Below are positions 173-58,968 of a stretch of DNA of 64,000 bases, piece by piece (the first letter of the stretch is position 1; the number at the start of each line of letters is the position of its first letter). This DNA comes from Candidatus Magasanikiibacteriota bacterium (GTDB taxonomy: Bacteria > Patescibacteriota > Patescibacteriia > Magasanikbacterales > UBA922), in NCBI GenBank assembly GCA_016207245.1, contig JACQQA010000004.1, positions 19,058-83,057 on the forward strand, read 5' to 3'. Made by a program: the position numbers and the translations under genes. The notes under the pieces were generated by a model. That model made no database searches, was not told the origin of the DNA, and was given only the letters and a program-made list of their open reading frames with translations.

Positions 173-1210
173 ATGTCGCGCGAATTTTCCCAGCATATTA
201 ATGACTTTGACGCGATGCGTTTGCGCGTCGCTTCTCCGGAAGTTATCCACGCTTGGTCTCACGGCGAAGTAGTCAAGCCGGAAACCATCAATTATCGCAC
301 GCAAAAGCCGGAAAAGGGCGGTTTGTTTGCCGAGGAAATTTTTGGCCCGACCAAAGACTGGGAATGTTATTGCGGCAAATACAAAAAAATTCGTTACAAA
401 GGCATTGTTTGCGACAAGTGCGGAGTGGAGGTTACTCACTCTTTGGTGCGCCGCCAGCGCATGGGGCACATTGATTTAGCCGCTCCGGTCTCGCACATTT
501 GGTTTTTGCGCTCCGTGCCATCCAAGATCGGTTTAGTTTTGGATATGTCCATTCAGGCCATGGAGAAAGTGATATACTTCGCGTCTTTCGTGATTGTTAA
601 AGTTGACGAGGAACAAAAAAAGCAGACACACGAAGCTTTACGGTCTGAATACAAGAGCAAGAAAAAACAGATTTTAAATGAATTTGACCGCCAGACCAAA
701 GAAGCCAATGATAAAAAATTAAAAGCATCGGCGATAGAAGAATTAGCTAAAGAGCGCGATCGCAAATTAATCGCTTTGGAAGAAGATTTTACCGACGCCG
801 AAGACGAGTTGAAAGATATTCAAATGTTACGAGTGTTATCAGAAAATCGCTATCAGGAATTGGCCTTGCGCTATGGTTATTTGTTTGACGCGGAGATCGG
901 CGCCGAAGCCATCCGCCGCCTTTTGGAGAGATTAAATTTAACAGAAACGATTATTCGGCTGGAAGCGGAGATCAAAGAAACTAAGGGCGCCAAATGCGAG
1001 CGTTTAATTAAGCGCGTTAAACTTTTGCGCAGTTTGGAAAAAAATAAAATTCGGCCGGAGTGGATGATTCTGACCGCGATCCCGATCGTGCCGCCGGATC
1101 TGCGCCCGATGGTGGCTTTGGACGGCGGACGTTTCGCGACTTCCGACCTGAATGATTTGTATCGCCGCGTTATCAATCGCAACAACCGTTTGCGCCGATT
1201 ATTGGAATGA
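173..1210 (+). CDS. rpoC: RNA polymerase beta' subunit, N-terminal segment ending at an in-frame TGA
   Basis: Zn-ribbon [45 protein letters not shown]. Stops at TGA 1208-1210 in the same frame as 1247..4054. Confidence 0.9.
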
Positions 1211-1246: not shown

Positions 1247-4054
<2,808 letters not shown>

Positions 4055-5806: not shown

Positions 5807-5835
5807 TTGACAAGTGGATAATTTCGCGCTATATT
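5807..5835 (+). promoter_or_regulatory. Sigma70-type promoter for RNase P RNA
   Basis: TTGACA (5807-5812), 17-nt spacer, TATATT (5830-5835). The P1 stem starts 8 nt later. Confidence 0.65.
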
Positions 5836-5875
5836 AAATACGCTCATTACACAGCAGATGATCGACCCGCCTCAT

Positions 5876-5900
5876 CGCCTGCCTGCCGGCAGGCAGGGCG
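5876..5900. repeat. P20 palindrome copy (CGCCTGCCTGCCGGCAGGCAGGGCG) inside RNase P RNA
   Basis: Perfect GC-rich palindrome just 5' of GGAAAGTCCG. The same core is at 11367, 55277, 56071 and 62944. Confidence 0.85.
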
Positions 5901-6249
5901 GGTAGGAAAGTCCGAGCTCCTTTTTTGACAATGGGTAATACCCATCCTTCATGTCGTGAGGCATTGAAGCGGGATAGCGCCACAGAGACAATACTACTTT
6001 GACACGCCGTAGCCTTGGCGGAGGCGGTAACAAAAACCCGCCTACGCTAAAGCTTCGGCGTGGCGAAGGAAACGTGAAAAGTGTATGGAGGTTTTGGTTC
6101 TAGATCAAAGCTACTATACTCTCCGACCCGTGAGGCGTCGGAGTGGCAAGCCCTGTCTGGAGAAAGTGCAGCGTCCCGATTTAATCGGGATGAAAAGTTA
6201 GCACGTTAGATCGCGTAGAGCAATTTACGCGACAGAGAAATGATCATTG

Positions 6250-6335
6250 CTTCGACTCGCTTCGCTCGCTCAGCACAAGCCCTATTAATAAAATAATATG
6301 ACTTGTCCTGAGCGAGGCCGTAGGCCGAGTCGAAG
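6250..6335. repeat. H-family hairpin element inside RNase P RNA
   Basis: CTTCGACTCG...CTCGCTCAGCACAAG / CTTGTCCTGAGCGAG...CGAGTCGAAG arms around an AT-rich loop, immediately 5' of ACAGAACTCGGC. Confidence 0.8.
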
Positions 6336-6418
6336 GACAGAACTCGGCTTATCGCTGTGGAATGAGCAATTAAAACCCCTCTTGAAAAAAGAGCGGGTTT
6401 TTGTTATCTTATTAATAT

Positions 6419-8975: not shown

Positions 8976-10130
8976 ATGAATGTCGGTGTTGATATAAGGT
9001 GTTTGATGGAGAAAGAACGCACTGGTGTTGGGGAGTATGCTTTTGGGCTGCTTGATGCTGTCTTTAGAATTGACAAAGAGAACCAGTATTTTTTATTTTA
9101 TAATTCCCATAAAGATGTTTCGGAAGTTTTGCCAAAATGGGAGTATCCGAATGTGCGTTATGTAAGGACGAGGTGGCCGAATAAGATATTTAATGTTTTT
9201 TTGCTTTTGGGTTTAGTAAAATTAAATAAACTGATTGAAAGAAGATTGAAAGATTATAAGATTAAAAAATTAGATTGTTTTTTTTCTCCGAACTTGAATT
9301 TTACTTCTTTGACTCCCAAAACAAAATTTTTTTTGACTATTCATGATTTGTCTTTTGAATTTTTGCCCGAGTGTTACACATTAAAACAACGGCTGTGGCA
9401 CAAATTACTGCGGCCGAAAAAGCAGTGTCAACAGGCGAATATTATTTTTACGCCATCGGAGAGTACGAGGCGGGATGTGGCGTCGCGGTATTTTGTGGCA
9501 GAAAAAAAAGTTTTAATTTTGCGTCCGGGTTTATCCGCAACTATGACACAGAATACAGATAACAGAATGCAGGTGAGAGAGAAATATGATTTGCCGGAGA
9601 AGTTTATTTTGTTTTTAGGCACGATTGAGCCGAGGAAAAATGTTGAGGCGGCAATATCCGCTTTTCAGAATATCCACACACTTACACACTTACACACTTA
9701 CACACTTGTCATCGCTGGCGCCCGCGGATGGAAGAACGAAAATGTGATGCGCGTTATTGCCGACACACCAAACGTTCGCTACATTGATTACGTTGCCGAG
9801 GAAGACAGACCCGCATTGTATCGTTTAGCCAGTCTGTTTGTCTATCCGAGTTTATATGAAGGATTCGGTTTGCCGGTTTTGGAAGCAATGGCCTGTGGCA
9901 CGCCGATCATCACCAGCAATCGTTCTTCTTTGCCCGAAGTCGGCGGTGATGCTGTTTGTTATGTCAATCCGGCGAATGTCGCGGAGTTGAGCTGGGCGAT
10001 GGAGCGAGTGTTGTGCGATGATGAATTAGGAATTAAGAATTATGAATTAAGAGTTGCAAGACAAAAAGAGTGTGTGGAAAGATTTGATTGGGGGAGAAGC
10101 GCTGGGCAGTTTTTAAATTATCTAATTTGA
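8976..10130 (+). CDS. Glycosyltransferase family 4, carrying three in-frame repeat inserts
   Basis: YEGFGLPVLEAMACGTPIITS. Inserts at 9549-9572, 9677-9707 and 10023-10053. Confidence 0.85.
   Translation: MNVGVDIRCLMEKERTGVGEYAFGLLDAVFRIDKENQYFLFYNSHKDVSEVLPKWEYPNVRYVRTRWPNKIFNVFLLLGLVKLNKLIERRLKDYKIKKLDCFFSPNLNFTSLTPKTKFFLTIHDLSFEFLPECYTLKQRLWHKLLRPKKQCQQANIIFTPSESTRRDVASRYFVAEKKVLILRPGLSATMTQNTDNRMQVREKYDLPEKFILFLGTIEPRKNVEAAISAFQNIHTLTHLHTYTLVIAGARGWKNENVMRVIADTPNVRYIDYVAEEDRPALYRLASLFVYPSLYEGFGLPVLEAMACGTPIITSNRSSLPEVGGDAVCYVNPANVAELSWAMERVLCDDELGIKNYELRVARQKECVERFDWGRSAGQFLNYLI
9549..9572. repeat. Q-family element (CAGAATACAGATAACAGAATGCAG) in frame
   Basis: Matches 55164-55193, 62873-62902 and reverse copies at 56098-56133 and 62935-62980. 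Encodes QNTDNRMQ. Confidence 0.75.
9677..9707. repeat. Tandem octamer array (CACACTTA) x4 in frame
   Basis: Read directly; encodes HTLTHLHTYTL. A related array lies in the spacer at 45183-45216. Confidence 0.85.
10023..10053. repeat. E-family heptamer array GAATTAGG AATTAAG AATTATG AATTAAG in frame
   Basis: Encodes ELGIKNYELR. The copy in the fem gene (55255-55305) is interrupted by the P20 palindrome. Confidence 0.85.
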
Positions 10131-36661: not shown

Positions 36662-37726
36662 ATGATTAACCTCGCAATCAACGGTTTTGGCCGGATCGGC
36701 CGGCAGGCCTTTAAGGTGGCGTTTGACCGGAAGGATTTTAAAATCGTCGCGGTCAATGATTTGACCGATACTAAAACCTTGGCGCATCTTTTACAACATG
36801 ATACGGCTTATGGCAAGTATAAATATACTGTAGGTTTTGACGAAAAGAATATAATTATTGGCAATCCTTCGGCTTGGTTCGACTCCGCTCACCACGGGTC
36901 GCTCAGGACAAGAAAGGTTCCGGTGCTCGCTGAAAAAGACCCCGCGCTTCTGCCGTGGAAGAAATTAAAAGTTGATGTGGTGATAGAAAGCACCGGCCGT
37001 TTTACCAAAAAAGAAGACGCATCATTGCATTTAAAAGCCGGCGCTAAAAAAGTTATTTTGTCCGCTCCGGCGAAGTCCTCCTCATCGGCGGGCGAGGGCG
37101 GCGGAGTTCCCACTTACGTCCGCGGAGTTAATTGCGGAAAAGTCGGCAAAGAAACTTCCTGCGTGATCAACAATGCCTCTTGCACCACGAATTGCATCGC
37201 GCCGGTCATGGCGGTTTTAGATGAAAAATTCGGCATTGAAAAAGCGATGATGTCCACTGTCCACGGCTATACCGCTGACCAGAATCTGCAAGACGCTCCG
37301 CACAAAGATTTGCGCCGCGCCCGCGCGGCCGCGGAAAATATTGTTCCCACATCCACCGGCGCGGCCAAAGCCGTGGGCGAAGTCAAGACAAATTTGCAGG
37401 GGATTTTTGACGGCGTGGCTTTTCGCGTGCCAGTGCCGACCTGTTCATTGTCCGATTTAACAATTGTTTTGAAAAAAAATGTAACAAAAGAAGAAGTGAA
37501 TCAGGCGCTGATTGACGCTTCCAAAACCAAAAGGTTTGAAGGAATTTTATTCTGCACCAACGAGCCGTTAGTATCAGCTGATTATGTCGGCAACACCTAT
37601 TCATCAATCGTCGATTTGCCGTTGACCAATGTGGTCGGCGGCAATCTCGTCAAAGTCGTGGCGTGGTATGATAACGAAGTAGGGTATTCGCATCGTCTTG
37701 TTGAAATGGCCAAGCTGTTTGCTTAA
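36662..37726 (+). CDS. gap: Glyceraldehyde-3-phosphate dehydrogenase with in-frame H-family insert
   Basis: INGFGRIGRQ, ASCTTNCIAP, WYDNEVGYS. Insert at 36866-36912. Confidence 0.92.
   Translation: MINLAINGFGRIGRQAFKVAFDRKDFKIVAVNDLTDTKTLAHLLQHDTAYGKYKYTVGFDEKNIIIGNPSAWFDSAHHGSLRTRKVPVLAEKDPALLPWKKLKVDVVIESTGRFTKKEDASLHLKAGAKKVILSAPAKSSSSAGEGGGVPTYVRGVNCGKVGKETSCVINNASCTTNCIAPVMAVLDEKFGIEKAMMSTVHGYTADQNLQDAPHKDLRRARAAAENIVPTSTGAAKAVGEVKTNLQGIFDGVAFRVPVPTCSLSDLTIVLKKNVTKEEVNQALIDASKTKRFEGILFCTNEPLVSADYVGNTYSSIVDLPLTNVVGGNLVKVVAWYDNEVGYSHRLVEMAKLFA
36866..36912. repeat. H-family element in frame in gap
   Basis: CCTTCGGCTTGGTTCGACTCCGCTCACCACGGGTCGCTCAGGACAAG encodes PSAWFDSAHHGSLRTR, just before the conserved AEKDPALLPW. 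Confidence 0.8.
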
Positions 37727-39909: not shown

Positions 39910-42900
39910 ATGCCTTACGATGCAAATAAAAACGAATTAGAAATTCTTAAGTTTTGGCAAGACAACAAAATTTTTGAAAAATCTATTTCTGAACGCCCGG
40001 AAAATAAGCCATATGTATTTTATGACGGGCCGCCATTTGCCACCGGCCTGCCGCATTACGGCCATATTTTAGGCTCGGTGATTAAAGACGTGGTGCCGCG
40101 TTATCAGACCATGAGAGGTCATCGCGTGCGCCGGCGCTGGGGTTGGGATTGCCATGGTTTGCCGATTGAAAATTTAGTTGAAAAAGAACTGGAAGTTTCC
40201 GGAAAAAAACAGATTGAGGAGAAATTGGGAGTCGAAAAATTTAATGATACCTGCCGGTCAAAAGTTTTAATGTACACAAAAGAGTGGAAGAAAATGGTGG
40301 ACCGCATCGGTCGCTGGATTGAGTTTGATAATGCCTACAAAACCATGGATTCCACGTATATGGAATCAGTTTGGTGGGCGTTGAAAACAATTTGGGGCAA
40401 GGGTTTGATTTATGAAGGCCGGAAAGTTTTGATGTATTGTCCGCATTGCGAAACTCCGGTGTCAAAAGCCGAGGTGGCGATGGATGATAGTTATAAAGAT
40501 ATTACGGAAGAAGCGGTCGTTGTGAAATTTAAGATACAAGACACAAGAAACAAACAAATTACAAAGTCAAAATTCAAAATTTTAAAAGACAGGTCGGTAT
40601 ATATTCTTGCTTGGACGACGACGCCGTGGACATTGCCCGGGAATGTGGCGCTCGCTGTTGGGAAAGATATTGATTATGTATTGGTTGAAGTTGATGGTGA
40701 AAATCTGATTTTGGCTAAAGATAGAGTTGAGGCCGTAATGGGAGATAAGAGATATGAGATAAAGCCTGCCCTGAGCTTGTCGAAGGGAGATAAAATGAAA
40801 GGCTCGGATTTGGTTGGTTTGGAATATGAACCGCTGTTTGAGATTCCGGCGATTCGGGAGACCAGTAAAAAAGCGTGGTATGTTACGACCGCGGATTTTG
40901 TTACCACGGAAGAAGGCACTGGCGTGGTGCACACCGCCGTGGTTTACGGCGAGGACGACTATAATTTAGGAATAAAAATCGGTTTGCCGGTAGTGCCGCT
41001 TTTGAATGATGCCGGACACTTCAATGAATTCGCGCCGGAATTTATCCGCGGCCAATATTTTAAAAAATCGGAGAAATTAATTAAAGATGATCTGGAAAAC
41101 CGCGGCTTGTTGTTCGCGCGGGAAAATCATACGCATTCTTATCCGCATTGCTGGCGGTGCGACACGCAATTATTTTACAACGCGATTTCCGCGTGGTTTA
41201 TTGATATTCAAAAAATAAAAAAGCGCCTGATTAAATTAAACGAAAAAATAAATTGGTTTCCGGAGCACTTGAAACACGGCCGCTTTTTGAATATTTTGGA
41301 AACCGCGCCGGATTGGAACATCTCGCGCAATCGGTATTGGGCCACGCCGTTACCGTTTTGGCGTTGCGGAGAAGATGGCTGTGATAATGTTGCGTGCGTT
41401 GGAAGCGTTGCTGAGTTGAAAGAGAAGGCAATTAATTTTGAGGAAGCGTATGACGGTAAAAAAATTGAAGAGATGGATCTGCATAAGCATTTGATGGATA
41501 AAATCAAATTAAAATGCGACAAGTGCGGCGGAGAAATGAGTCGGACGCCGGAAGTGATTGATTGTTGGGTTGAATCCGCGTCAATGCCGTTTGCTGAATT
41601 TCATTATCCGTTTGAAAATAAAGCCGTATTTGAAAAACGTTTTCCGGGCCAGTACATTGGCGAATACATCGCTCAAACCCGCGCCTGGTTCTACTATATG
41701 CATGTCATGGCGACTCTGCTGTTTGACGATATCAGTTTTGAAAATGTCGTCTGCACCGGCACGATTTTGAATGAGAAAGGCGAGAAATTATCCAAATCTA
41801 AACGCAATTATACGGACCCGTGGGTGATTATTGAACAGTACGGCGTGGACGCTTTGCGCTATTACCTGATGACTTCGGTGGCCATGCAAGCCGATGATTT
41901 GTATTTCAACGACCGCGAGGTGCGCGATGTTTATAATAAAGTGATAAACATGCTGTGGAATGTGGTGGAGTTTTATAAAATGTATGCTGGCGAAAGTCAT
42001 AAAGTCACAAAGTCTGTAAAGTCAGAGAATGTGTTGGACAAGTGGATAATGGCGAGGTTAGGGCAGTTGGTCCGCGAGGTGACGGAAAATTTGGATAAAT
42101 ATGACACGGTGCGGGCTGGCCGGCCGATTAAGGATTTTATTGATGATCTTTCAACTTGGTACTTGCGCCGTTCGCGCGATCGGTTCAAGGGGGACAATGC
42201 CGAAGACAAACAGGCGGCATTAGCCACTTTGCACGATGTTCTTTATATCCTTTCAAAAGTGATAGCGCCGTTTGTGCCGTTTATGGCAGAGAGAGTGTAT
42301 CATGTAACATGGAACATGGAACATGGAACAACGAGAGAATCGGTGCATTTAGAGAGTTGGCCTACGCCGGCAGATGTTACCAATGATGATGTTCAATTGT
42401 TGCAAGATATGGGAAAGGCGAGGAAAATTGTAGAGATGGGATTGGCGTTGCGGGCAGAAGCCGGGGTCAGAGTTCGCCAACCACTATCTATGTTGCAAGT
42501 TATAGGTTACAAGCTACAATATGAATTGGCGAAGATTGTGAAAGAAGAATTGAATGTGAAGGTGGTTGAAAATGTCGGAGATATTGAAGTTGTTGAAAAT
42601 ATTGTGGTGAAAGAAGGCGGGGAATTGAAGGTGGCGTTAGACACGCGTTTGACCAATGAATTAAAAAAAGAGGGTTTGATACGTGAAATCATCCGCGCGA
42701 TTAACCAGACGCGGAAAGAACAGAAATTAACGATTCAAGATAGAGTGACGATTATTTATGAGACCGATGATGAAATATTAGAGCAGGTTTTTGCTGAATT
42801 TGGAGAGGAAATTAAAAAAGCCGTGCTTGCGGACGAGTTAAAGGAGGAGAAAAACGACGGTGCAGAAGCTGATTTAGACGGTCATAAAATTAAACTGTGG

Positions 42901-48671: not shown

Positions 48672-51122
48672 GTGAAGGAGAAAATTAAAAAAGTCAGATG
48701 TTGTTCACTCTGCCGCCAGCCTGGGCATACAAAAAAAGATTGTCAAGCGGGGCGAGTGAAAGAAAAAAACACGAGCGGGAAGTTCGTGTTAATTGGCGTT
48801 CAGCAAAAACACCAGAAATCATCGCATGTTATTAATCTTAAAGATAAAAAACCGGAATCAATTTGGGATGACGTGAAAGTGTTTAGCGAGAATAGAGTGC
48901 CAACAACCGAGCGCCGTGTGGTCAATTTGGCGGAAATGATCAGAGCCAACGAATCGCAGAGAAACAAGATTAACCGTCCGCTAATTGAGCTACCACAGCC
49001 CACTAATACGCGACCACTAATAGACACCAATTTGAAAAAGGTAATGTTTTTATCTCCCTTCGGCAAGCTCAGGGCAAGCTCTATCTCTTATTTCCCATCT
49101 CTTATCACTGTCACGATTAAAGAGCGGATTGTTGGAGCAAAAGAAGGGATAGTAAATGGCGTTTGTTTGGTAAAAGAAAGAATGGTGAGTGTACTTACTT
49201 TCAAAAAGTTTGCTTACAGCGTCATATCAGTCGCGCTTTTGGCCGCGTTACCTTTTCCCGCCATCGGTTATTATTCCAGCGTGAAAGATACCAGCGCGCG
49301 AGTGGTGGAGGCGAGCACGAACGCGTTTTTGTCTTTGCAGTCATCAACTGTCGCGGCGATGAACGCGGATTTGGGCCAAGCTGAATATGATTTGAACGCG
49401 GCGCTGGAATCTTTTCAAACCGCTGATTTGATTTTAGATAAAGAGCACCGCGCTTTGCAATATGTGGCGAGCGTATTACCAATTATCGGTCGGCAAGTCA
49501 AAAGTCGCCAGCATTTGTTGGTCGCCGGACATCATTTGGCTTTGGGCAATACGTATTTAGTAAAAGGAATTGAAGAAATTAATAAACAAAATCAGCTGTC
49601 ATTGGGCGATAAGATTGGGCTTTTAGCCGACTATCTCCGTTCCGCTGCGCCGCAATATGAAGAAGCGTTAACGGAATTGGACGGCGTCTCTTCGGAGGTT
49701 GTGCCCGCGGAGTATCAAAAATCATTTGTTGATTTTAAACTGCTTTTTGCCGCTTTTGTTAATGATCTGCGGGATTTAATCGGCCTCGCGGACGCGCTGG
49801 AAGCCGGTTTCGGCCATGATCAGTTGAGGCGTTATCTGCTGGTGTTTCAAAACAATGATGAATTGCGGCCCACCGGCGGGTTTATGGGAAGTTTCGCGCT
49901 GTTGGATGTGCAAAAAGGCAGGGTTGTCAACTTAGATATTCCCGGCGGCGGCACCTATGATCTGCAAGGCCAGTTGGACGAATATGTGAAACCGCCGTTG
50001 CCGTTGCAGTTATTAAATAAGCGTTGGGAGTTTCAGGACGCGAATTGGTTTCCGCATTTTCCGACAGCCGCGAAAAAAATCGCGTGGTTTTACGAACACG
50101 GCAGGGGAGCCACGGTTGACGGCGTGATTGCGATCAATGCCACAGTTCTAGAACGTTTGTTATCAGTGTTCGGACCGGTGCAAAGCGCGGATAAAAATTT
50201 AGTTATCGCCAGTTCTGACGCGGTGGAAAAATTGCAACAGCAGATTGAATTTGATTACAACAAAAATGAAAATAAGCCGAAAGAAGTTTTGTCGGAATTG
50301 GCGCCGCAGATTTTGGTCGAATTCGGCAAGTTGGATACGGTCGGCGTAATGCGCTTGGTCAGCGAATTGGAAGATGCTTTGCAAAAAAAAGAAATCCAAT
50401 TATATTTTAATGATGATTCAACGCAGGCTAAGATGGTTGAGTTCGGCTGGGCCGGCGGAATCAGCCCGGTCGCGGCAACCCAAGACTATTTATCGGTTGT
50501 TAATGCCAATATCCACGGCCAGAAGTCAGACGCTAAAATTAAACAGTCAATTGAACACCAAGCCGTGGTCCAATCAGACGGTTCAATTATAGACACGGTG
50601 TTTGTGCGTCGGACGCATACTGGTGTTGAGGGTGTGCCGCTTTATGGCGTGAATAATGTTGATTACTTAAGAATTTATGTGCCAAAAGGGTCGGAATTGT
50701 TGGAGGCGGGCGGGTTTACATTTCCACCTGAGGACGTTTTTCGGGTGCCGGAAGATTGGTACAAAGATGATGTTGATTTGGCAAAACAGGAGAAAGAAGC
50801 CGGCATTCATCCGCAGAGCGGAACGCGGATTACCAATGAATTTGGCAAAACTGCTTTTGGCAATTGGGTGATGGCCGCGCCGGGCAATACCGCTACCGCG
50901 TATTTTGTTTATCGTTTGCCGTTTAAAGCCGATCCCCGCTATAGTTTATTGGCGCAAAAACAATCCGGCATAGACAGTGATTTTACCACTCAAGTGATTT
51001 ATCCGGACGGCTGGTCGCCGGTGTGGTCGGCTGATGGACAAATGCAGTTAGCTTCCAACGGCGCGTCGTATTCAGGTATTTTGGAAGAGGATAAAGTAGT
51101 GGGGGTGGTGATGGGGAGATAA
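48672..51122 (+). CDS. DUF4012-domain envelope protein with N-terminal CCHC zinc-knuckle-like motif
   Basis: LLVFQNNDELRPTGGFMGSFALLDV (DUF4012). N-terminal CSLCRQPGHTKKDC. TM at FAYSVISVALLAALPFPAIGYY. GTG start 9 nt after TGGTATAAT (48654-48662). Confidence 0.8.
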   Translation: MKEKIKKVRCCSLCRQPGHTKKDCQAGRVKEKNTSGKFVLIGVQQKHQKSSHVINLKDKKPESIWDDVKVFSENRVPTTERRVVNLAEMIRANESQRNKINRPLIELPQPTNTRPLIDTNLKKVMFLSPFGKLRASSISYFPSLITVTIKERIVGAKEGIVNGVCLVKERMVSVLTFKKFAYSVISVALLAALPFPAIGYYSSVKDTSARVVEASTNAFLSLQSSTVAAMNADLGQAEYDLNAALESFQTADLILDKEHRALQYVASVLPIIGRQVKSRQHLLVAGHHLALGNTYLVKGIEEINKQNQLSLGDKIGLLADYLRSAAPQYEEALTELDGVSSEVVPAEYQKSFVDFKLLFAAFVNDLRDLIGLADALEAGFGHDQLRRYLLVFQNNDELRPTGGFMGSFALLDVQKGRVVNLDIPGGGTYDLQGQLDEYVKPPLPLQLLNKRWEFQDANWFPHFPTAAKKIAWFYEHGRGATVDGVIAINATVLERLLSVFGPVQSADKNLVIASSDAVEKLQQQIEFDYNKNENKPKEVLSELAPQILVEFGKLDTVGVMRLVSELEDALQKKEIQLYFNDDSTQAKMVEFGWAGGISPVAATQDYLSVVNANIHGQKSDAKIKQSIEHQAVVQSDGSIIDTVFVRRTHTGVEGVPLYGVNNVDYLRIYVPKGSELLEAGGFTFPPEDVFRVPEDWYKDDVDLAKQEKEAGIHPQSGTRITNEFGKTAFGNWVMAAPGNTATAYFVYRLPFKADPRYSLLAQKQSGIDSDFTTQVIYPDGWSPVWSADGQMQLASNGASYSGILEEDKVVGVVMGR
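49054..49081. repeat. H-family element in frame in the DUF4012 gene
   Basis: CTCCCTTCGGCAAGCTCAGGGCAAGCTC encodes SPFGKLRAS. Confidence 0.75.
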
Positions 51123-53380: not shown

Positions 53381-54151
53381 TCATCCTAAATAATCTACCC
53401 CACCCTCTTGTTTAAAAATTTCAATTTTCGGACCTTTCCAGCCTTTTGCTTTTAGTCCTTCCTCGGCGGCGGAGACTTGCGCTTCTTGTTTGCTGGTGCC
53501 TTTGCCTTCGGCGATTTTTTCTTTATCAAGATAAACGCCGACGACAAATTCTTTAGCATGGTCAGGCCCTTCTTCGCCCAAGACCCGATAGGTTGGCGTA
53601 ATACCGACGATTTCCTGGGCGGATTCTTGAAAACGCGATTTCGGATCCATCCATAAACCCTCTTCCAGCACTTGCGGCAGTTTGGTGATAATCCAACGAG
53701 TAATAAATTGCTCCGCGACATCCCAGCCTTGGTCAATGTAAATCGCGCCGATAAGGGATTCCATTACATTGGCAAGAATGTATTCGCGCGCTTTTGTGCC
53801 GGCGTCTTTGGATTCGCCGTGGCTTAAAAACAGATATTCTTCAAGCCCGATTTCATTCGCCACTTGCGCGCACATTTTGGCGTTAACCAGGGCCGCGCGC
53901 CAGTTAGTCAGCTCGCCTTCCGGATTCAGATAGTTTTCAAAAAGAAATTCGGTTACCACCAGCTCCAGCACCGCATCGCCTAAAAATTCTAATCGCTCAT
54001 TATGTCCGAGCGGGAAAGCGCGGTTTTCATTAAGATAAGAACGATGAACCAGTGCTTGCACGAGATAATTCGGCTGCTTGAATTTAATGCCGATTTTTTC
54101 TTCCAGCTCGTTAAACTTTTTTGTTTTGTATTCTTCCATTGTCGGTTTCAT
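53381..54151 (-). CDS. rnc: Ribonuclease III
   Basis: [16 protein letters not shown] signature plus a C-terminal dsRBD. Confidence 0.9.
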
Positions 54152-54921: not shown

Positions 54922-56040
54922 ATGGAAATCAAAATCTGCCAAAACAAGCAAGAATGGGATAGTTGGGTGTCAACCCTTCGACTCACTCCGTTCGCTCAGG
55001 GCAAGCCGGCGGAGTTTTTGCAGTCTTGGGATTGGGGCGAGTTTCAAAAAAATGTCGGCAATGATGTGTTGCGTTTGCAGGTTGTTGATGGCGGACAGGT
55101 TTTATGGCAAGGACAGGGATTTACGCACAGATTGGGATTGGGGATGAAGTATTTGTATGCACCCAGAATGCAGAATGCAGATAACAGAATGCAAAGTGTG
55201 TGTGATTTTTTGAGAGGCAAAGGATTTGCGTTTGTCAGAATTGAGCCGGACGAGGAATTAGGAATTATGAATTATGCCATGCCTGCCGGCAGGCAGGAAT
55301 TAAGGACAACGAAAAATCGACAGCCGCAGAACACTCTTGTTTTAAATATAAGCAAAACAGAAGAAGAATTCCTTGCCGCGATGCACGAGAAGACTCGTTA
55401 TAACATTCGTCTGGCAGAAAAAAAGGGCGTAGTGATTAAATCAGAAAAAAATATTGATGTTTTTTGGCAGTTGAATTTGGCCACGACAGAGCGGGATAAA
55501 TTCCGAAGCCATCCGAAAGAATATTATAGAAAAATGCTGGAAAATAATTTTTGCCGCCAGCTTACCGCGTATTACCCCTTCGACTCACTTCGCTCGCTCA
55601 GGGCAGGCTCTTTCGACTCCGCTCCCCTCGGCCTGAGCTCGGGACGAAGGCAGGGCAAACCGATAGCGGCGATTTTGTTGGCAGCGTTCGGCGACACAAT
55701 TACATATCTGCATGGTGTGTCCGGAAATGAGCATCGTAATTTGATGTCGCCGTATCTTTTGCAGTGGGAAGGAATTAAATTAGGAAAGAAGCTGGGCTGT
55801 CAGTATTATGATTTTGGCGGTATCGCGCCGGACGCGAAACTCAGCGCAACAACGAGTTTTAATAATTTTTGCTGGCCAGCCGACCATCCGTGGACAGGCA
55901 TTACTAGATTTAAAGCCGGCTTTGGCGGGGAGCGGCGGGATTATCCGGGAGCGGTGGATGTGGTATTGAGCGGGTGGAGATATGTGTTGTATAAGATTGC
56001 GGCAAGGTTGGTCAAGTCCATAAAGTCTTTAAAGTTGTGA
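54922..56040 (+). CDS. FemAB-family aminoacyl-tRNA-dependent peptidoglycan peptide-bridge transferase with at least five in-frame repeat inserts
   Basis: FLQSWDWGEFQKNVG, KTRYNIRLAEKKGV, YYDFGGI, GITRFKAGFGG. Confidence 0.8.
   Translation: MEIKICQNKQEWDSWVSTLRLTPFAQGKPAEFLQSWDWGEFQKNVGNDVLRLQVVDGGQVLWQGQGFTHRLGLGMKYLYAPRMQNADNRMQSVCDFLRGKGFAFVRIEPDEELGIMNYAMPAGRQELRTTKNRQPQNTLVLNISKTEEEFLAAMHEKTRYNIRLAEKKGVVIKSEKNIDVFWQLNLATTERDKFRSHPKEYYRKMLENNFCRQLTAYYPFDSLRSLRAGSFDSAPLGLSSGRRQGKPIAAILLAAFGDTITYLHGVSGNEHRNLMSPYLLQWEGIKLGKKLGCQYYDFGGIAPDAKLSATTSFNNFCWPADHPWTGITRFKAGFGGERRDYPGAVDVVLSGWRYVLYKIAARLVKSIKSLKL
54974..55005. repeat. H-family half element in frame in fem
   Basis: CCCTTCGACTCACTCCGTTCGCTCAGGGCAAG encodes LRLTPFAQGK. 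Confidence 0.8.
55164..55193. repeat. Q-family element (CAGAATGCAGAATGCAGATAACAGAATGCA) in frame in fem
   Basis: Encodes RMQNADNRMQ. This is the uninterrupted reference copy for 62935-62980. Confidence 0.85.
55255..55305. repeat. E-family heptamer array interrupted by a 21-nt P20 palindrome block (55277-55297)
   Basis: GAATTAGG AATTATG AATTATG [CCATGCCTGCCGGCAGGCAGG] AATTAAG; compare the uninterrupted 10023-10053. Confidence 0.85.
55575..55658. repeat. Complete H-family hairpin in frame in fem
   Basis: CCTTCGACTCACTTCGCTCGCTCAGGGCAGG ... CCTGAGCTCGGGACGAAGG encodes PFDSLRSLRAGSFDSAPLGLSSGRRQGK. Confidence 0.8.
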
Positions 56041-56070: not shown

Positions 56071-56133
56071 GCCTGCTTGCCGGCAGGCAGGCATTTCGTA
56101 TGTGTCCTGTTATCTGCGTCCTGCATCCTGTCG
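56071..56133. repeat. P20 palindrome (GCCTGCTTGCCGGCAGGCAGGC) next to a reverse Q-family element
   Basis: The palindrome is followed by GTCCTGTTATCTGCGTCCTGCATCCTG. Confidence 0.8.
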
Positions 56134-58934: not shown

Positions 58935-58968
58935 TTCCTCGACTCACTTCGTTCGCTCGGAATGACAG
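58935..58968. repeat. H-family element in the rpsL 5' leader
   Basis: TTCCTCGACTCACTTCGTTCGCTCGGAATGACAG ends 12 nt before the rpsL ATG. Confidence 0.75.

What the first reader, a model, noticed from the sequence alone, without database searches (positions are those of the whole stretch)
5843..6366. RNase P RNA is about 520 nt because dispersed-repeat hairpins sit inside its conserved core
All the core strands I can recognise are present (GGAAAGTCCGAGC, CACAGAGA, AGAGAAATGATC, ACAGAACTCGGCTTATCG, P1 pairing). Two helices are built from sequences that also occur elsewhere in the window. The hairpin immediately 5' of GGAAAGTCCG (5876-5900) is the 20-nt palindrome CCTGCCTGCCGGCAGGCAGG, found at four other loci. 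An 86-nt hairpin (6250-6335), immediately 5' of ACAGAACTCGGC, belongs to the CTTCGACTC..CTCGCTCAG..CAAG family that is also found in frame in gap, gpmI, ileS, fem and the DUF4012 gene. So the same elements that invade protein genes have been tolerated, or co-opted as peripheral helices, in an essential ribozyme. The known precedent is Rickettsia palindromic elements, which occur in both RNA and protein genes.
Basis: partly seen in the sequence, partly recalled or inferred. Interest (0 to 1): 0.55.

Follow-up and report, generated by a model that had tools for sequence, protein, structure and literature searches.

The report
Repeat hairpins enlarge RNase P RNA
The gene for the tRNA-processing ribozyme RNase P in this uncultivated groundwater bacterium is about 150 bases longer than in its most compact relatives because three small hairpin-forming repeats, from families that also sit inside protein and tRNA genes, have been added at outward-pointing positions of the RNA.

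Summary
Window 5842-6367 (+) is a bacterial type A RNase P RNA gene (Rfam RF00010, 117.8 bits, full model) from a Candidatus Magasanikbacteria (Patescibacteria/CPR) genome. It is 526 nt; the compact relatives are 338-376 nt.

The extra length comes from three hairpin modules.
- **P3 loop:** a perfect 20-nt palindrome. It is missing, to the base, from the closest relative for which rnpB was recovered, which has identical flanks.
- **P19 slot:** an 86-nt hairpin. Nine of 28 related rnpB genes have no helix there and 14 have a small unrelated one.
- **P12:**

Each module belongs to a repeat family found elsewhere: in frame in fem, gpmI, gap, an IleRS-like gene, DUF4012 and a glycosyltransferase gene; in tRNA genes; in other helices (P3, P16/17, P19) of rnpB in other Magasanikbacteria; and in unrelated contigs of 38-68% G+C.

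One correction: the palindrome has three other copies in the window, not four.

The best reading is that these are very small dispersed palindromic repeats, REP-, RPE- or cyanobacterial-SDR-like, that survive at structurally permissive loops. Retention in the mature RNA is inferred, not shown. This is a new variant of a known kind of event.

The parts
5807..5835 (+). Sigma-70-like promoter of rnpB (TTGACA, 17 nt, TATATT)
   Evidence: 11 of 12 consensus positions. The equivalent TTGACA/TATAAT boxes lie upstream of rnpB in the relatives (P3-region listing).
5842..6367 (+). rnpB, bacterial type A RNase P RNA, 526 nt
   Evidence: RF00010, 117.8 bits, model 1-367. P1 is 5842-5855 paired with 6354-6367. 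The whole-molecule fold is -234.8 kcal/mol, z -9.7, and forms all three insert hairpins.
5866..5902 (+). P3: native stem CCCGCCT/GGCGGG with an enlarged loop
   Evidence: -27.3 kcal/mol. The same stem with a 5-nt loop is present in L031.
5878..5897 (+). 20-nt perfect palindrome CCTGCCTGCCGGCAGGCAGG inserted in the P3 loop
   Evidence: It is absent as an exact 20-nt gap in L031/L032, whose flanks are identical.
5904..5917 (+). P4 5' strand (AGGAAAGTCCGAGC)
5997..6069 (+). P12, extended by about 50 nt into a long imperfect hairpin (family K; arm CGCCGTAGCCTTGGCGGAGGCGG at 6005-6027)
   Evidence: 84 nt against 22-36 nt in most relatives. (-43.3 kcal/mol, z -7.0). The arm matches the P3 helix of L065 rnpB at 22 of 23 bases in reverse complement.
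6174..6190 (+). Small P16/17 hairpin TCCCGATTTAATCGGGA. Near-identical hairpins serve as P3 or P19 in relatives.
6250..6335 (+). 86-nt hairpin in the P19 slot (between the P2 3' strand and the P4 3' strand), M family
   Evidence: The same hairpin is in L063, where the P2-P19 segment that contains it matches at 92 of 95 bases while the rest of that rnpB is 35-83% identical segment by segment.
6337..6351 (+). P4 3' strand (ACAGAACTCGGCTTA)
6372..6405 (+). Terminator-like hairpin plus T-run after rnpB (read by eye; not called by the scan)
   Evidence: Sequence; inverted repeat I12; not listed.
55278..55297 (+). Palindrome copy inside fem, present as a 21-nt in-frame insert (AMPAGRQ) within a heptamer array
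   Evidence: It is absent from the 85%-identical ortholog P0122.
56072..56091 (+). Palindrome copy, intergenic, 32 nt after the fem stop codon
62944..62963 (+). Palindrome copy, 12 nt after the trmD stop codon, flanked by inverted heptamer arrays
55578..55650 (+). M-family hairpin in frame in fem (DSLRSLRAGSFDSAPLGLSSGRR), nested in a short M copy
54976..55005 (+). M-family single arm in frame near the fem N-terminus
14072..14110 (+). M-family copy in frame in gpmI (first paralog)
   Evidence: It appears as an 11-13 aa insert relative to the tandem paralog.
36878..36912 (+). M-like copy in frame in the GAPDH N-terminal domain
40765..40785 (-). Short M copy (motif on the minus strand) inside the IleRS-like ORF, within a heptamer array
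   Evidence: (I1)
49058..49078 (+). Short M copy in frame in the DUF4012 gene
   Evidence: (I1)
58939..58961 (+). M-family copy just upstream of, and overlapping, the rpsL start codon

Best explanation
The locus is the RNase P RNA gene of a Magasanikbacteria genome. Its catalytic and specificity cores are intact. Three short hairpin-forming DNA repeats have been added at positions where an extra helix can point away from the core: the loop of P3, the tip of P12, and the P19 slot between the P2 and P4 3' strands.

Each added module belongs to a family of very small dispersed palindromic repeats. These families also occur in protein genes (kept in frame), in tRNA genes, in intergenic DNA and in other peripheral helices of rnpB in related genomes.

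**Proposed mechanism, shown or inferred step by step**
- Shown: the repeats arrive by DNA-level insertion. At the two sites where an empty site is available (rnpB and tRNA-Leu), no target-site duplication is seen.
- Shown as a pattern, inferred as a cause: they also spread by recombination between rnpB alleles.
- Inferred: only copies that land in permissive loops of an essential RNA, or that keep the frame in proteins, survive selection.
- Inferred: the hairpins are transcribed and stay in the RNA as coaxial extensions of peripheral helices. They are neutral at first and later maintained as RNA helices.
- Unknown: the enzyme that moves them.
For: **Gene identity and intact core.**

**P3 insert.**
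- L031/L032 has 100% identical flanks and lacks exactly the 20 nt.
- The same exact 20-mer is inserted between GGTAGA and CACGC in two partial copies of a tRNA-Leu gene in L068. The intact copy beside them lacks it.
- In fem it is a 21-nt in-frame insert that the 85%-identical ortholog lacks.

**P19 slot.**
- It is empty in 9 of 28 relatives, small and unrelated in 14, and large in 5.
- L063 carries the same hairpin: the P2-P19 segment matches at 92 of 95 bases, while the other segments of that rnpB are 35-83% identical.
- L031 is the closer relative by its flanking gene (86% against about 67%, inferred from matching contig lengths), yet it carries a different hairpin there.

**M arms in other helices.** They occur in P16/17 of L031, L041, L049, L052 and L057, and in P3 of L063.

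**P12.** It is 84 nt against 22-36 nt in most relatives, and its arm matches the P3 of L065.

**Family enrichment in the window.** The palindrome has 4 copies against 0 expected; the M motif has 8 against 0.01.

**Spread beyond this clade.** The palindrome is exact in 35 IMG/VR stretches of 38-68% G+C, and the M 24-mer in 3.

**RNA-level maintenance of older copies.** P16/17 M hairpins in relatives fold far better as sense RNA than as antisense RNA (-43 against -28, -37 against -20 and -50 against -28 kcal/mol). They have conserved G-U pairs, and 5 of 30 pairs show compensatory changes.

**Not an assembly artefact.** A separate Logan assembly (SRR12113384) gives the identical rnpB.
Against: - No transposase was found: none among the 27 window ORFs scanned with Pfam. 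The rest of the genome was not available.
- The mobilising step is therefore not shown.
- Outside rnpB, long M copies were seen only in the window among about 0.7 Mb of related loci. Their status as a dispersed family in other Magasanikbacteria therefore rests on short forms and on the fem orthologs.
- The near-identity of the P19 hairpin in the window and L063, at the same site, could reflect allele recombination rather than insertion.
- There are no expression data, so retention in the mature RNA is inference only.
- The window's own three inserts fold equally well on both strands, so they carry no RNA-specific signal.
Confidence: 0.78

Rival explanations
1. The hairpins behave as intervening sequences. 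They are transcribed but cut out by RNase III, as in fragmented rRNAs, leaving an RNase P RNA held together by base pairing.
For: - The inserts are long, nearly perfect duplexes.
- The genome encodes RNase III at 53381-54151.
- CPR structural RNAs are known for unusual insertions, and Lui et al. report diverged RNase P RNAs with large helix extensions (PMC8172020).
- Sense-strand-specific duplex conservation in relatives is also what a processing site would need.
Against: - No expression data exist either way.
- The 20-nt palindrome forms only 7-8 base pairs, which is short for RNase III.
- Helices at P3, P12 and P19 are natural variable extensions in many RNase P RNAs and need no removal (established knowledge).
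Confidence: 0.12
2. There is no mobile element. The modules move only between rnpB alleles, by homologous recombination anchored on the conserved core strands. Similarity to protein-gene segments is secondary or coincidental.
For: - rnpB is a mosaic. The window and L031 are identical in the first 27 nt and in the 19 nt after the palindrome (differing there only by the 20-nt insert), and 34 of 35 identical over the last 35 nt, but about 55% identical in between.
- The window and L063 share only the P19 region at 97%.
Against: This cannot explain the exact 20-mer in fem, in tRNA genes and in 35 unrelated contigs. It also cannot explain M copies in six protein genes, at 8 matches against 0.01 expected. 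It probably acts in addition to insertion rather than instead of it.
Confidence: 0.07
3. These are ordinary lineage-specific P3, P12 and P19 helices, and the resemblance to other loci is chance among G+C-rich stems.
For: A P19 helix is common in this clade (19 of 28), and P3 and P12 are always present.
Against: - There is an exact 20-nt indel against a relative with identical flanks.
- The M arm gives 23 of 24 and 24 of 24 matches, and 0 to 0.01 matches are expected by chance.
- The P12 and P19 slot lengths are outliers among the 28 relatives.
Confidence: 0.02

Closest known systems
STRR (short tandemly repeated repetitive) sequences inside helix P12 of RNase P RNA in heterocyst-forming cyanobacteria (Vioque 1997, Nucleic Acids Res 25:3471; cited in PMC2858038; content recalled from my own knowledge)
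   Same: Genome-wide short repeats lie inside the RNase P RNA gene at a peripheral helix (P12) and are tolerated by the ribozyme. This window also carries many heptamer tandem arrays.
   Different: Here the inserts are palindromic hairpin modules, not heptamer arrays. They occupy three slots at once (P3 loop, P12, P19). Across the clade the same module is found in different helices. The phylum is also different (Patescibacteria).
Small dispersed repeats (SDR) of Nostoc and Anabaena (Elhai et al. 2008, Genome Res 18:1484; reference confirmed; content recalled, as the paper is not held)
   Same: These are 21-27-nt hairpin-forming elements, often embedded in tandem heptamer arrays, with presence/absence differences at otherwise identical orthologous sites. 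The 20-nt palindrome here behaves the same way.
   Different: Sequence relationship to SDR1-8 could not be tested. This element occurs in contigs of 38-68% G+C, far beyond one phylum. It is documented here inside RNase P RNA and tRNA genes.
Rickettsia palindromic elements (RPE)
   Same: Palindromic repeats inserted in frame in protein genes and also in a structural RNA gene: R. bellii has 526 RPEs, 53 in protein genes and one in tmRNA (PMC1458961).
   Different: RPEs are about 105-146 nt (PMC3184786) and restricted to Rickettsia. Here the elements are 20-90 nt, belong to several families, and three sit in one RNA gene.
REP / REPIN elements mobilised by RAYT transposases (PMC3116915; PMC3733652, abstract shown)
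   Same: Short G+C-rich palindromes in many copies, with inverted doublets forming hairpins. The IS200/IS605-type mechanism leaves no target duplication, which is consistent with the clean 20-nt indels.
   Different: REPs are extragenic, whereas these lie inside genes. No RAYT was seen in the window. No GTAG or CGTC tag is visible at the palindrome ends in the sequences.
Diverged RNase P RNAs of CPR bacteria (Lui, Nielsen and Arkin 2021, PMC8172020)
   Same: CPR RNase P RNAs have large helix extensions or missing helices and often fall below Rfam thresholds. L031 scores 47.6 bits against a gathering score of 100.
   Different: In the passages retrieved from that paper, the extensions are not linked to dispersed repeat families.

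Membership tests
Bacterial RNase P RNA, type A (Rfam RF00010) | Covariance-model score at or above the curated gathering score over the full model | tested here: met
   117.8 bits against 100, model positions 1-367
Bacterial RNase P RNA, type A (Rfam RF00010) | P4 pseudoknot strands (GGAAAGUCCG... / ACAGAA..CGGCUUA), P1 closure and conserved J11/12, J12/13 and J18/2 strands | tested here: met
Bacterial RNase P RNA, type A (Rfam RF00010) | Catalytic cleavage of pre-tRNA 5' leaders | not testable with these tools
   Needs an in vitro assay
REP / REPIN (RAYT-associated) | Short palindromic repeat of about 20-40 nt in multiple copies | tested here: met
REP / REPIN (RAYT-associated) | Predominantly extragenic location | tested here: not met
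   Of the four window copies, one is in rnpB, one is in the fem ORF and two are intergenic. M copies lie mostly inside ORFs.
REP / REPIN (RAYT-associated) | GTAG or CGTC tag at one end (PMC3733652) | tested here: not met
   The palindrome begins CCTG and ends CAGG, and its flanks vary across the 46 copies.
REP / REPIN (RAYT-associated) | A cognate RAYT (Y1 transposase) gene in the genome, flanked by the repeats | tested here: inconclusive
   None among the 27 window ORFs scanned. The rest of the genome was not available.
Rickettsia palindromic elements | Elements of 100-150 nt belonging to the RPE sequence families of Rickettsia | tested here: not met
   The host is Magasanikbacteria and the elements are 20-90 nt. 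No sequence comparison with RPE models was made.
Rickettsia palindromic elements | In-frame insertion in protein genes and insertion in structural RNA genes | tested here: met
   This is a resemblance in behaviour only.
Cyanobacterial SDR / STRR type repeats | Very small (about 20-27 nt) hairpin-forming dispersed elements with presence/absence differences at orthologous sites | tested here: met
Cyanobacterial SDR / STRR type repeats | Embedding in tandem heptamer or octamer arrays | tested here: met
   Window fem 55249-55305 and 62861-62987; L078, L084, L094, L099
Cyanobacterial SDR / STRR type repeats | Sequence or structural homology to SDR1-8 | not testable with these tools
   The paper and its sequences are not held.
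RNase III-excised intervening sequences | Extended duplex replacing a native loop of a structural RNA | tested here: met
RNase III-excised intervening sequences | Absence of the insert from the mature RNA | not testable with these tools
   Needs RNA-seq or a Northern blot. RNase III is encoded at 53381-54151.

The most novel reading that the evidence does not exclude
The 20-nt palindrome, and perhaps the M hairpin, may be cosmopolitan, cross-phylum, ultra-small mobile elements. They would insert precisely, without target duplication, into loops of existing hairpins (the RNase P P3 loop, the tRNA D-loop and variable-arm position, the centres of other palindromes) and between units of heptamer arrays. 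This would imply a widespread and so far unidentified mobilising machinery, or a single-strand or RNA-templated insertion route. Magasanikbacteria rnpB would then act as a natural insertion trap in which modules are later domesticated as RNA helices and swapped between P3, P12, P16/17 and P19.
Probability: 0.25. Interest if true: 0.8.

Novelty: new variant of a known kind. Interest (0 to 1): 0.58.

Why it matters
**For annotation.** This explains why CPR RNase P RNAs are long, variable and often missed. L031 scores 47.6 bits against a threshold of 100. Masking repeat hairpins at P3, P12, P16/17 and P19 should rescue detection.

**For RNA biology.** The clade provides a natural mutagenesis map of where an essential ribozyme tolerates 20-130-nt helices. 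It also offers a series from young, DNA-symmetric inserts to old inserts maintained through G-U pairs, which shows how peripheral helices may originate.

**For mobile-element biology.** It gives base-exact empty and filled sites for a 20-nt element that also occurs in tRNA genes, in protein genes and in contigs of very different G+C content. That makes the origin of such mini-repeats directly testable.

Tried and rejected
- **Synteny through rpoC** (genome-contig scan). The two closest genomes, L001 and L002, are collinear only up to the tRNA at window 5532 and then diverge, so no rnpB was recovered this way.
- **Exact look-up of the window's sugar transferase** found nothing because the gene start is called differently. 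Homologs were used instead.
- **L046**, an 88%-identical homolog on a short contig, has no rnpB upstream. **L034**, the 93%-identical relative, has a contig that begins inside the gene, so its rnpB could not be read.
- **Rfam at permissive thresholds** gives no family for the palindrome or the M element.
- **A literature search for the palindrome sequence** returned only irrelevant hits. The Elhai 2008 and Vioque 1997 papers are not held.
- **A Pfam scan of 27 ORFs** found no transposase.
- **Assembly artefact** was considered and rejected, because an independent Logan contig is identical.
- **CRISPR repeat origin for the palindrome** was considered and rejected, because the copies are solitary or irregularly spaced.
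- **A full-length custom covariance model** was not built, because the calibration limits rule out a model of about 350 positions. Landmark-based segmentation was used instead.
Full report
**1. What is at the coordinates**

Rfam's bacterial type A RNase P model (RF00010) matches window 5851-6362 on the plus strand. The score is 117.8 bits (gathering score 100, E 2e-35) and the whole model, positions 1-367, is covered.

The terminal helix P1 can be extended to 5842-5855 paired with 6354-6367 (GCTCATTACACAGC / GCTGTGGAATGAGC), which gives a 526-nt RNA. A near-consensus promoter, TTGACA-17-TATATT at 5807-5835, puts the transcription start at about 5842. A hairpin followed by a T-run lies at 6372-6405 (read; the scan did not call it as a terminator).

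The organism is a Candidatus Magasanikbacteria (Patescibacteria/CPR). The rpoC gene upstream is 99% and 95% identical at protein level (92% and 85% at nucleotide level) to two Magasanikbacteria MAGs.

**2. Where the extra length is**

The model alignment shows inserts in four places:
- the P3 loop (+15 nt against the model);
- P12 (+52 nt);
- the P13/14 region (26 nt against 4);
- a 73-nt insert between the P2 3' strand and ACAGAAC, which is the slot of the optional helix P19.

To tell which of these are unusual for the lineage I collected relatives.

*How the relatives were found.* Synteny through rpoC failed, because the two closest genomes diverge immediately after the tRNA at window 5532. 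The sugar-transferase gene downstream of rnpB, however, is conserved. Its homologs led to rnpB in the following:
- RIFCSPLOWO2_12_FULL_43_12 (L031/L032; flanking protein 86% identical);
- more distant Magasanikbacteria (L039, L041, L044);
- an independent Logan assembly of the window's own population (L035, identical).

A lineage-specific pattern from J15/P18/J18-2 then retrieved 29 metagenome loci. In total this gave 28 distinct rnpB sequences.

*What the relatives show.*
- Compact members are 338 nt (L039, 177.8 bits) and 376 nt (L044, 183.7 bits).
- The P13/14 segment is 62-81 nt in the relatives where it could be measured (66-70 nt in most), so it is a lineage trait and not an insert.
- The P12 segment is 22-36 nt in most relatives and 84 nt in the window.
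- The P19 slot (AGAGAAAT to ACAGAA) falls into three classes:

| Slot length | Meaning | Sequences |
|---|---|---|
| 11 nt | no helix | 9 |
| 20-37 nt | small hairpin, unrelated sequences | 14 |
| 76-135 nt | large hairpin | 5 (window 95 nt) |

Removing 20 + about 50 + about 84 nt from 526 leaves about 370 nt, which is the normal size.

**3. The P3 palindrome is a clean insertion**

The window and L031 are 100% identical over the first 27 nt and the next 19 nt of rnpB. They differ there only by a 20-nt gap:

- window: ...CCTCATCG-CCTGCCTGCCGGCAGGCAGG-GCGGG...
- L031: ...CCTCATCGGCGGG...

There is no target duplication beyond an ambiguous G. The native P3 stem is kept, and the palindrome stacks on it as an inner hairpin (-27.3 kcal/mol).

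The same 20-mer recurs elsewhere.
- **In the window:** at 62944 (exact), 56072 and 55278 (one mismatch each), against 0 expected.
- **In fem:** it forms a 21-nt in-frame insert (AMPAGRQ), the 20-mer plus one base. The 85%-identical ortholog P0122 and seven other orthologs lack it.
- **In L068, another Magasanikbacteria:** the exact 20-mer lies between GGTAGA and CACGC, the D-loop, in two tandem partial copies of a tRNA-Leu gene. The intact copy beside them lacks it.
- **In IMG/VR contigs:** the exact 20-mer occurs in 35 stretches of 38-68% G+C. One sits at the variable-arm position of a tRNA-Met that ARAGORN still calls (L100). Many sit between units of heptamer or octamer arrays. In the window too, the fem copy and the copy after trmD are embedded in heptamer arrays.

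**4. The P19-slot hairpin belongs to a repeat family**

The 86-nt hairpin at 6250-6335 folds at -44.1 kcal/mol, z -7.45.

*Matches to its left arm, CTTCGACTCGCTTCGCTCGCTCAG:*
- 23 of 24 in fem at 55578;
- 24 of 24 in the P16/17 helix of L057 rnpB;
- exact 24-mers in three unrelated contigs of 56-68% G+C, two of which show the form ...CTTCGACTCGCTTCGCTCGCTCAG(G/A)ATGACA.

*Copies in the window.* The degenerate motif CTTCGRC..GCTCAGSRC has 8 matches against 0.01 expected. Pfam confirms the host genes as gpmI, an IleRS-like synthetase, DUF4012 and fem, with weaker copies in GAPDH and a GT4 glycosyltransferase. All the ORFs stay open through the repeats.

*Evidence that the protein-gene copies are insertions.*
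- In fem, the hairpin copy is a 20-residue insert missing from the 85%-identical ortholog. It is nested inside a short form (PFGSAQGK) that more distant orthologs also lack. Other orthologs carry similar short inserts (PFGKLRAG, SAWLRTG) at other positions.
- In gpmI, the copy is an 11-13-residue insert relative to the tandem paralog.

*M arms within rnpB genes.* A profile of the M arm finds it in P16/17 of L031, L041, L049, L052 and L057, in both P3 and P19 of L063, and in P19 of the window.

*The L063 comparison.* L063 has the same hairpin at the same site. The P2-P19 segment that contains it matches at 92 of 95 bases, although the other segments of that rnpB are only 35-83% identical. Its flanking gene is more distant (about 67%, inferred from matching contig lengths) than that of L031 (86%). 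L031 carries a quite different 130-nt hairpin built of CCACTAAT/CCACGAAT repeats. This pattern means recent transfer of the module, by insertion or by recombination between alleles. It does not fit vertical inheritance of an ordinary helix.

**5. P12**

The extended P12 (5997-6069; -43.3 kcal/mol, z -7.0) has an arm, CGCCGTAGCCTTGGCGGAGGCGG, that matches the P3 helix of L065 rnpB at 22 of 23 bases in reverse complement. No other copy lies in the window. This third family, K, is so far documented only within rnpB genes.

**6. How it most likely works**

*Shown:*
- precise presence/absence of the modules at otherwise conserved sites;
- membership of multi-copy families;
- location at the P3 loop, the P12 tip and the P19 slot, with P16/17 also used in relatives;
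- an intact core;
- formation of all three hairpins in the global fold (-234.8 kcal/mol, z -9.7).

*Inferred:* the modules are very small non-autonomous mobile or recombining palindromes. Selection leaves only copies in permissive places: loops that point away from the active site in RNAs, and in-frame surface insertions in proteins. The 20+1 nt copy in fem fits this reading.

*Evidence that such modules persist as RNA helices.* This comes from older copies in relatives.
- P16/17 M hairpins fold much better as sense RNA than as antisense RNA (-42.9 against -28.0, -37.0 against -20.2, -49.8 against -28.3 kcal/mol), because their 3' arms have accumulated C-to-T changes that keep G-U pairs.
- In a four-sequence alignment, 5 of 30 pairs show compensatory double changes.
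- The window's own inserts are symmetric, so they are presumably young and carry no such signal.

*Recombination.* rnpB alleles are mosaics. The window and L031 are identical at the 5' end apart from the insert and 34 of 35 identical at the 3' end, but about 55% identical in the middle. Allele recombination anchored on the core strands probably contributes to module exchange.

*What is unknown.* No transposase was found among the 27 ORFs checked, so the mobilising enzyme is unknown.

**7. Rivals**

- *RNase III-type excision of the hairpins.* RNase III is encoded at 53381-54151. This cannot be excluded without RNA data.
- *Pure allele recombination.* It cannot explain the copies in protein genes, tRNA genes and unrelated contigs.
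- *Ordinary helices with chance similarity.* Sections 3-5 refute this.
- *Assembly artefact.* This is unlikely, because an independent assembly gives the identical sequence.

**8. Comparison with what is known**

Precedents exist for repeats inside structural RNA genes.
- Rickettsia palindromic elements: R. bellii has 526 of them, 53 in protein genes and one in tmRNA (PMC1458961).
- STRR repeats within P12 of cyanobacterial RNase P RNA (Vioque 1997, cited in PMC2858038; content recalled from my own knowledge).
- The closest in behaviour are the 21-27-nt small dispersed repeats of Nostoc, which are embedded in heptamer arrays (Elhai et al. 2008; reference confirmed, content recalled from my own knowledge).

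REP/REPIN elements share the palindromic form and a mechanism that leaves no duplication. They are extragenic, RAYT-linked and GTAG/CGTC-tagged, however, and those features are not met here or could not be shown.

Lui et al. (PMC8172020) reported that CPR RNase P RNAs are diverged, have large helix extensions and often fall below detection thresholds. The passages retrieved do not connect this to repeats. L031, at 47.6 bits, is an example.

**9. Verdict**

It is a new variant of a known kind of event. What is new:
- three different repeat modules in one ribozyme gene;
- the same modules occupying different helices across a clade;
- base-exact empty and filled sites for a 20-nt element that also sits in tRNA and protein genes and in contigs from very different organisms.

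Retention in the mature RNA and the mechanism of mobility remain to be shown.

Noticed in passing
window 1208-1210: An in-frame TGA splits rpoC into two ORFs (173-1210 and 1247-4054). Six relatives encode Leu at this codon. It is probably a sequencing or assembly error, or a population variant, rather than recoding.
   Followed up: partly
window 9530-9571, 9672-9714, 10017-10058, 11092-11180, 55152-55193, 62697-62766, 62861-62902: Many short tandem arrays with a 7- or 8-nt period (CAGAATG, ACTTACAC, GAATTAK, AAATTGG and others), several translated in frame inside glycosyltransferase, fem and trmD ORFs. They resemble cyanobacterial STRRs. Palindrome and short-M copies sit inside such arrays.
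   Followed up: partly
L068 1000-1245: Two tandem 79-nt partial duplications of the 5' part of a tRNA-Leu gene, each carrying the exact 20-nt palindrome in the D-loop, lie directly upstream of the intact tRNA-Leu, which lacks it.
   Followed up: partly
L100 2239-2330; also L077 8616 and L107 515: In IMG/VR contigs the same 20-nt palindrome sits at the variable-arm position of a tRNA-Met that ARAGORN still predicts (L100). It also sits in a tRNA-like D-loop fragment (L107). In all, 35 IMG/VR stretches of 38-68% G+C carry the exact 20-mer, some with 3-6 copies.
   Followed up: partly
L112 and L113 (M 24-mer sites); window 58936-58966: The M arm is part of a widespread hairpin of the form GTCATYCTGAGCG...CTTCGCTCGCTCAGRATGACA, found in unrelated high-G+C contigs. 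A copy in the window overlaps the annotated start of rpsL, whose ORF has a 40-residue N-terminal extension before the S12 domain.
   Followed up: no
L001 10055-11710: In the closest relative, a segment of about 1.5 kb bounded by 104-nt inverted repeats (91% identical) follows the tRNA at the point where synteny with the window ends. It is possibly an insertion element. In L031 the sequence upstream of rnpB is a two-component system instead of DAGK-tRNA.
   Followed up: no
L031 2013-2544: This rnpB (532 nt) scores only 47.6 bits against the Rfam gathering score of 100, so standard annotation would miss it. A 65-aa ORF was called inside it in the public annotation.
   Followed up: partly
L039 2077-2414 and L040 1401-1738: rnpB lies in the same tRNA-to-sugar-transferase interval but on the opposite strand, a local inversion of the gene.
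   Followed up: no
window 6174-6190; P3 and P19 of L041, L047, L049, L062, L068, L073: A 17-nt hairpin, TCCCGAYTTWRTCGGGA, recurs as P3, P16/17 or P19 in different rnpB genes. It may be another small interchangeable module.
   Followed up: no
window 13312-16514: Two tandem gpmI paralogs (44% identical). Only the first carries the M-family insert.
   Followed up: partly
window 63972-63990: The 16S rRNA gene reads GTGCCAGCAGCAGCGGTAA at the 515F primer site (A instead of C), a mismatch that could reduce amplicon recovery of this lineage.
   Followed up: no
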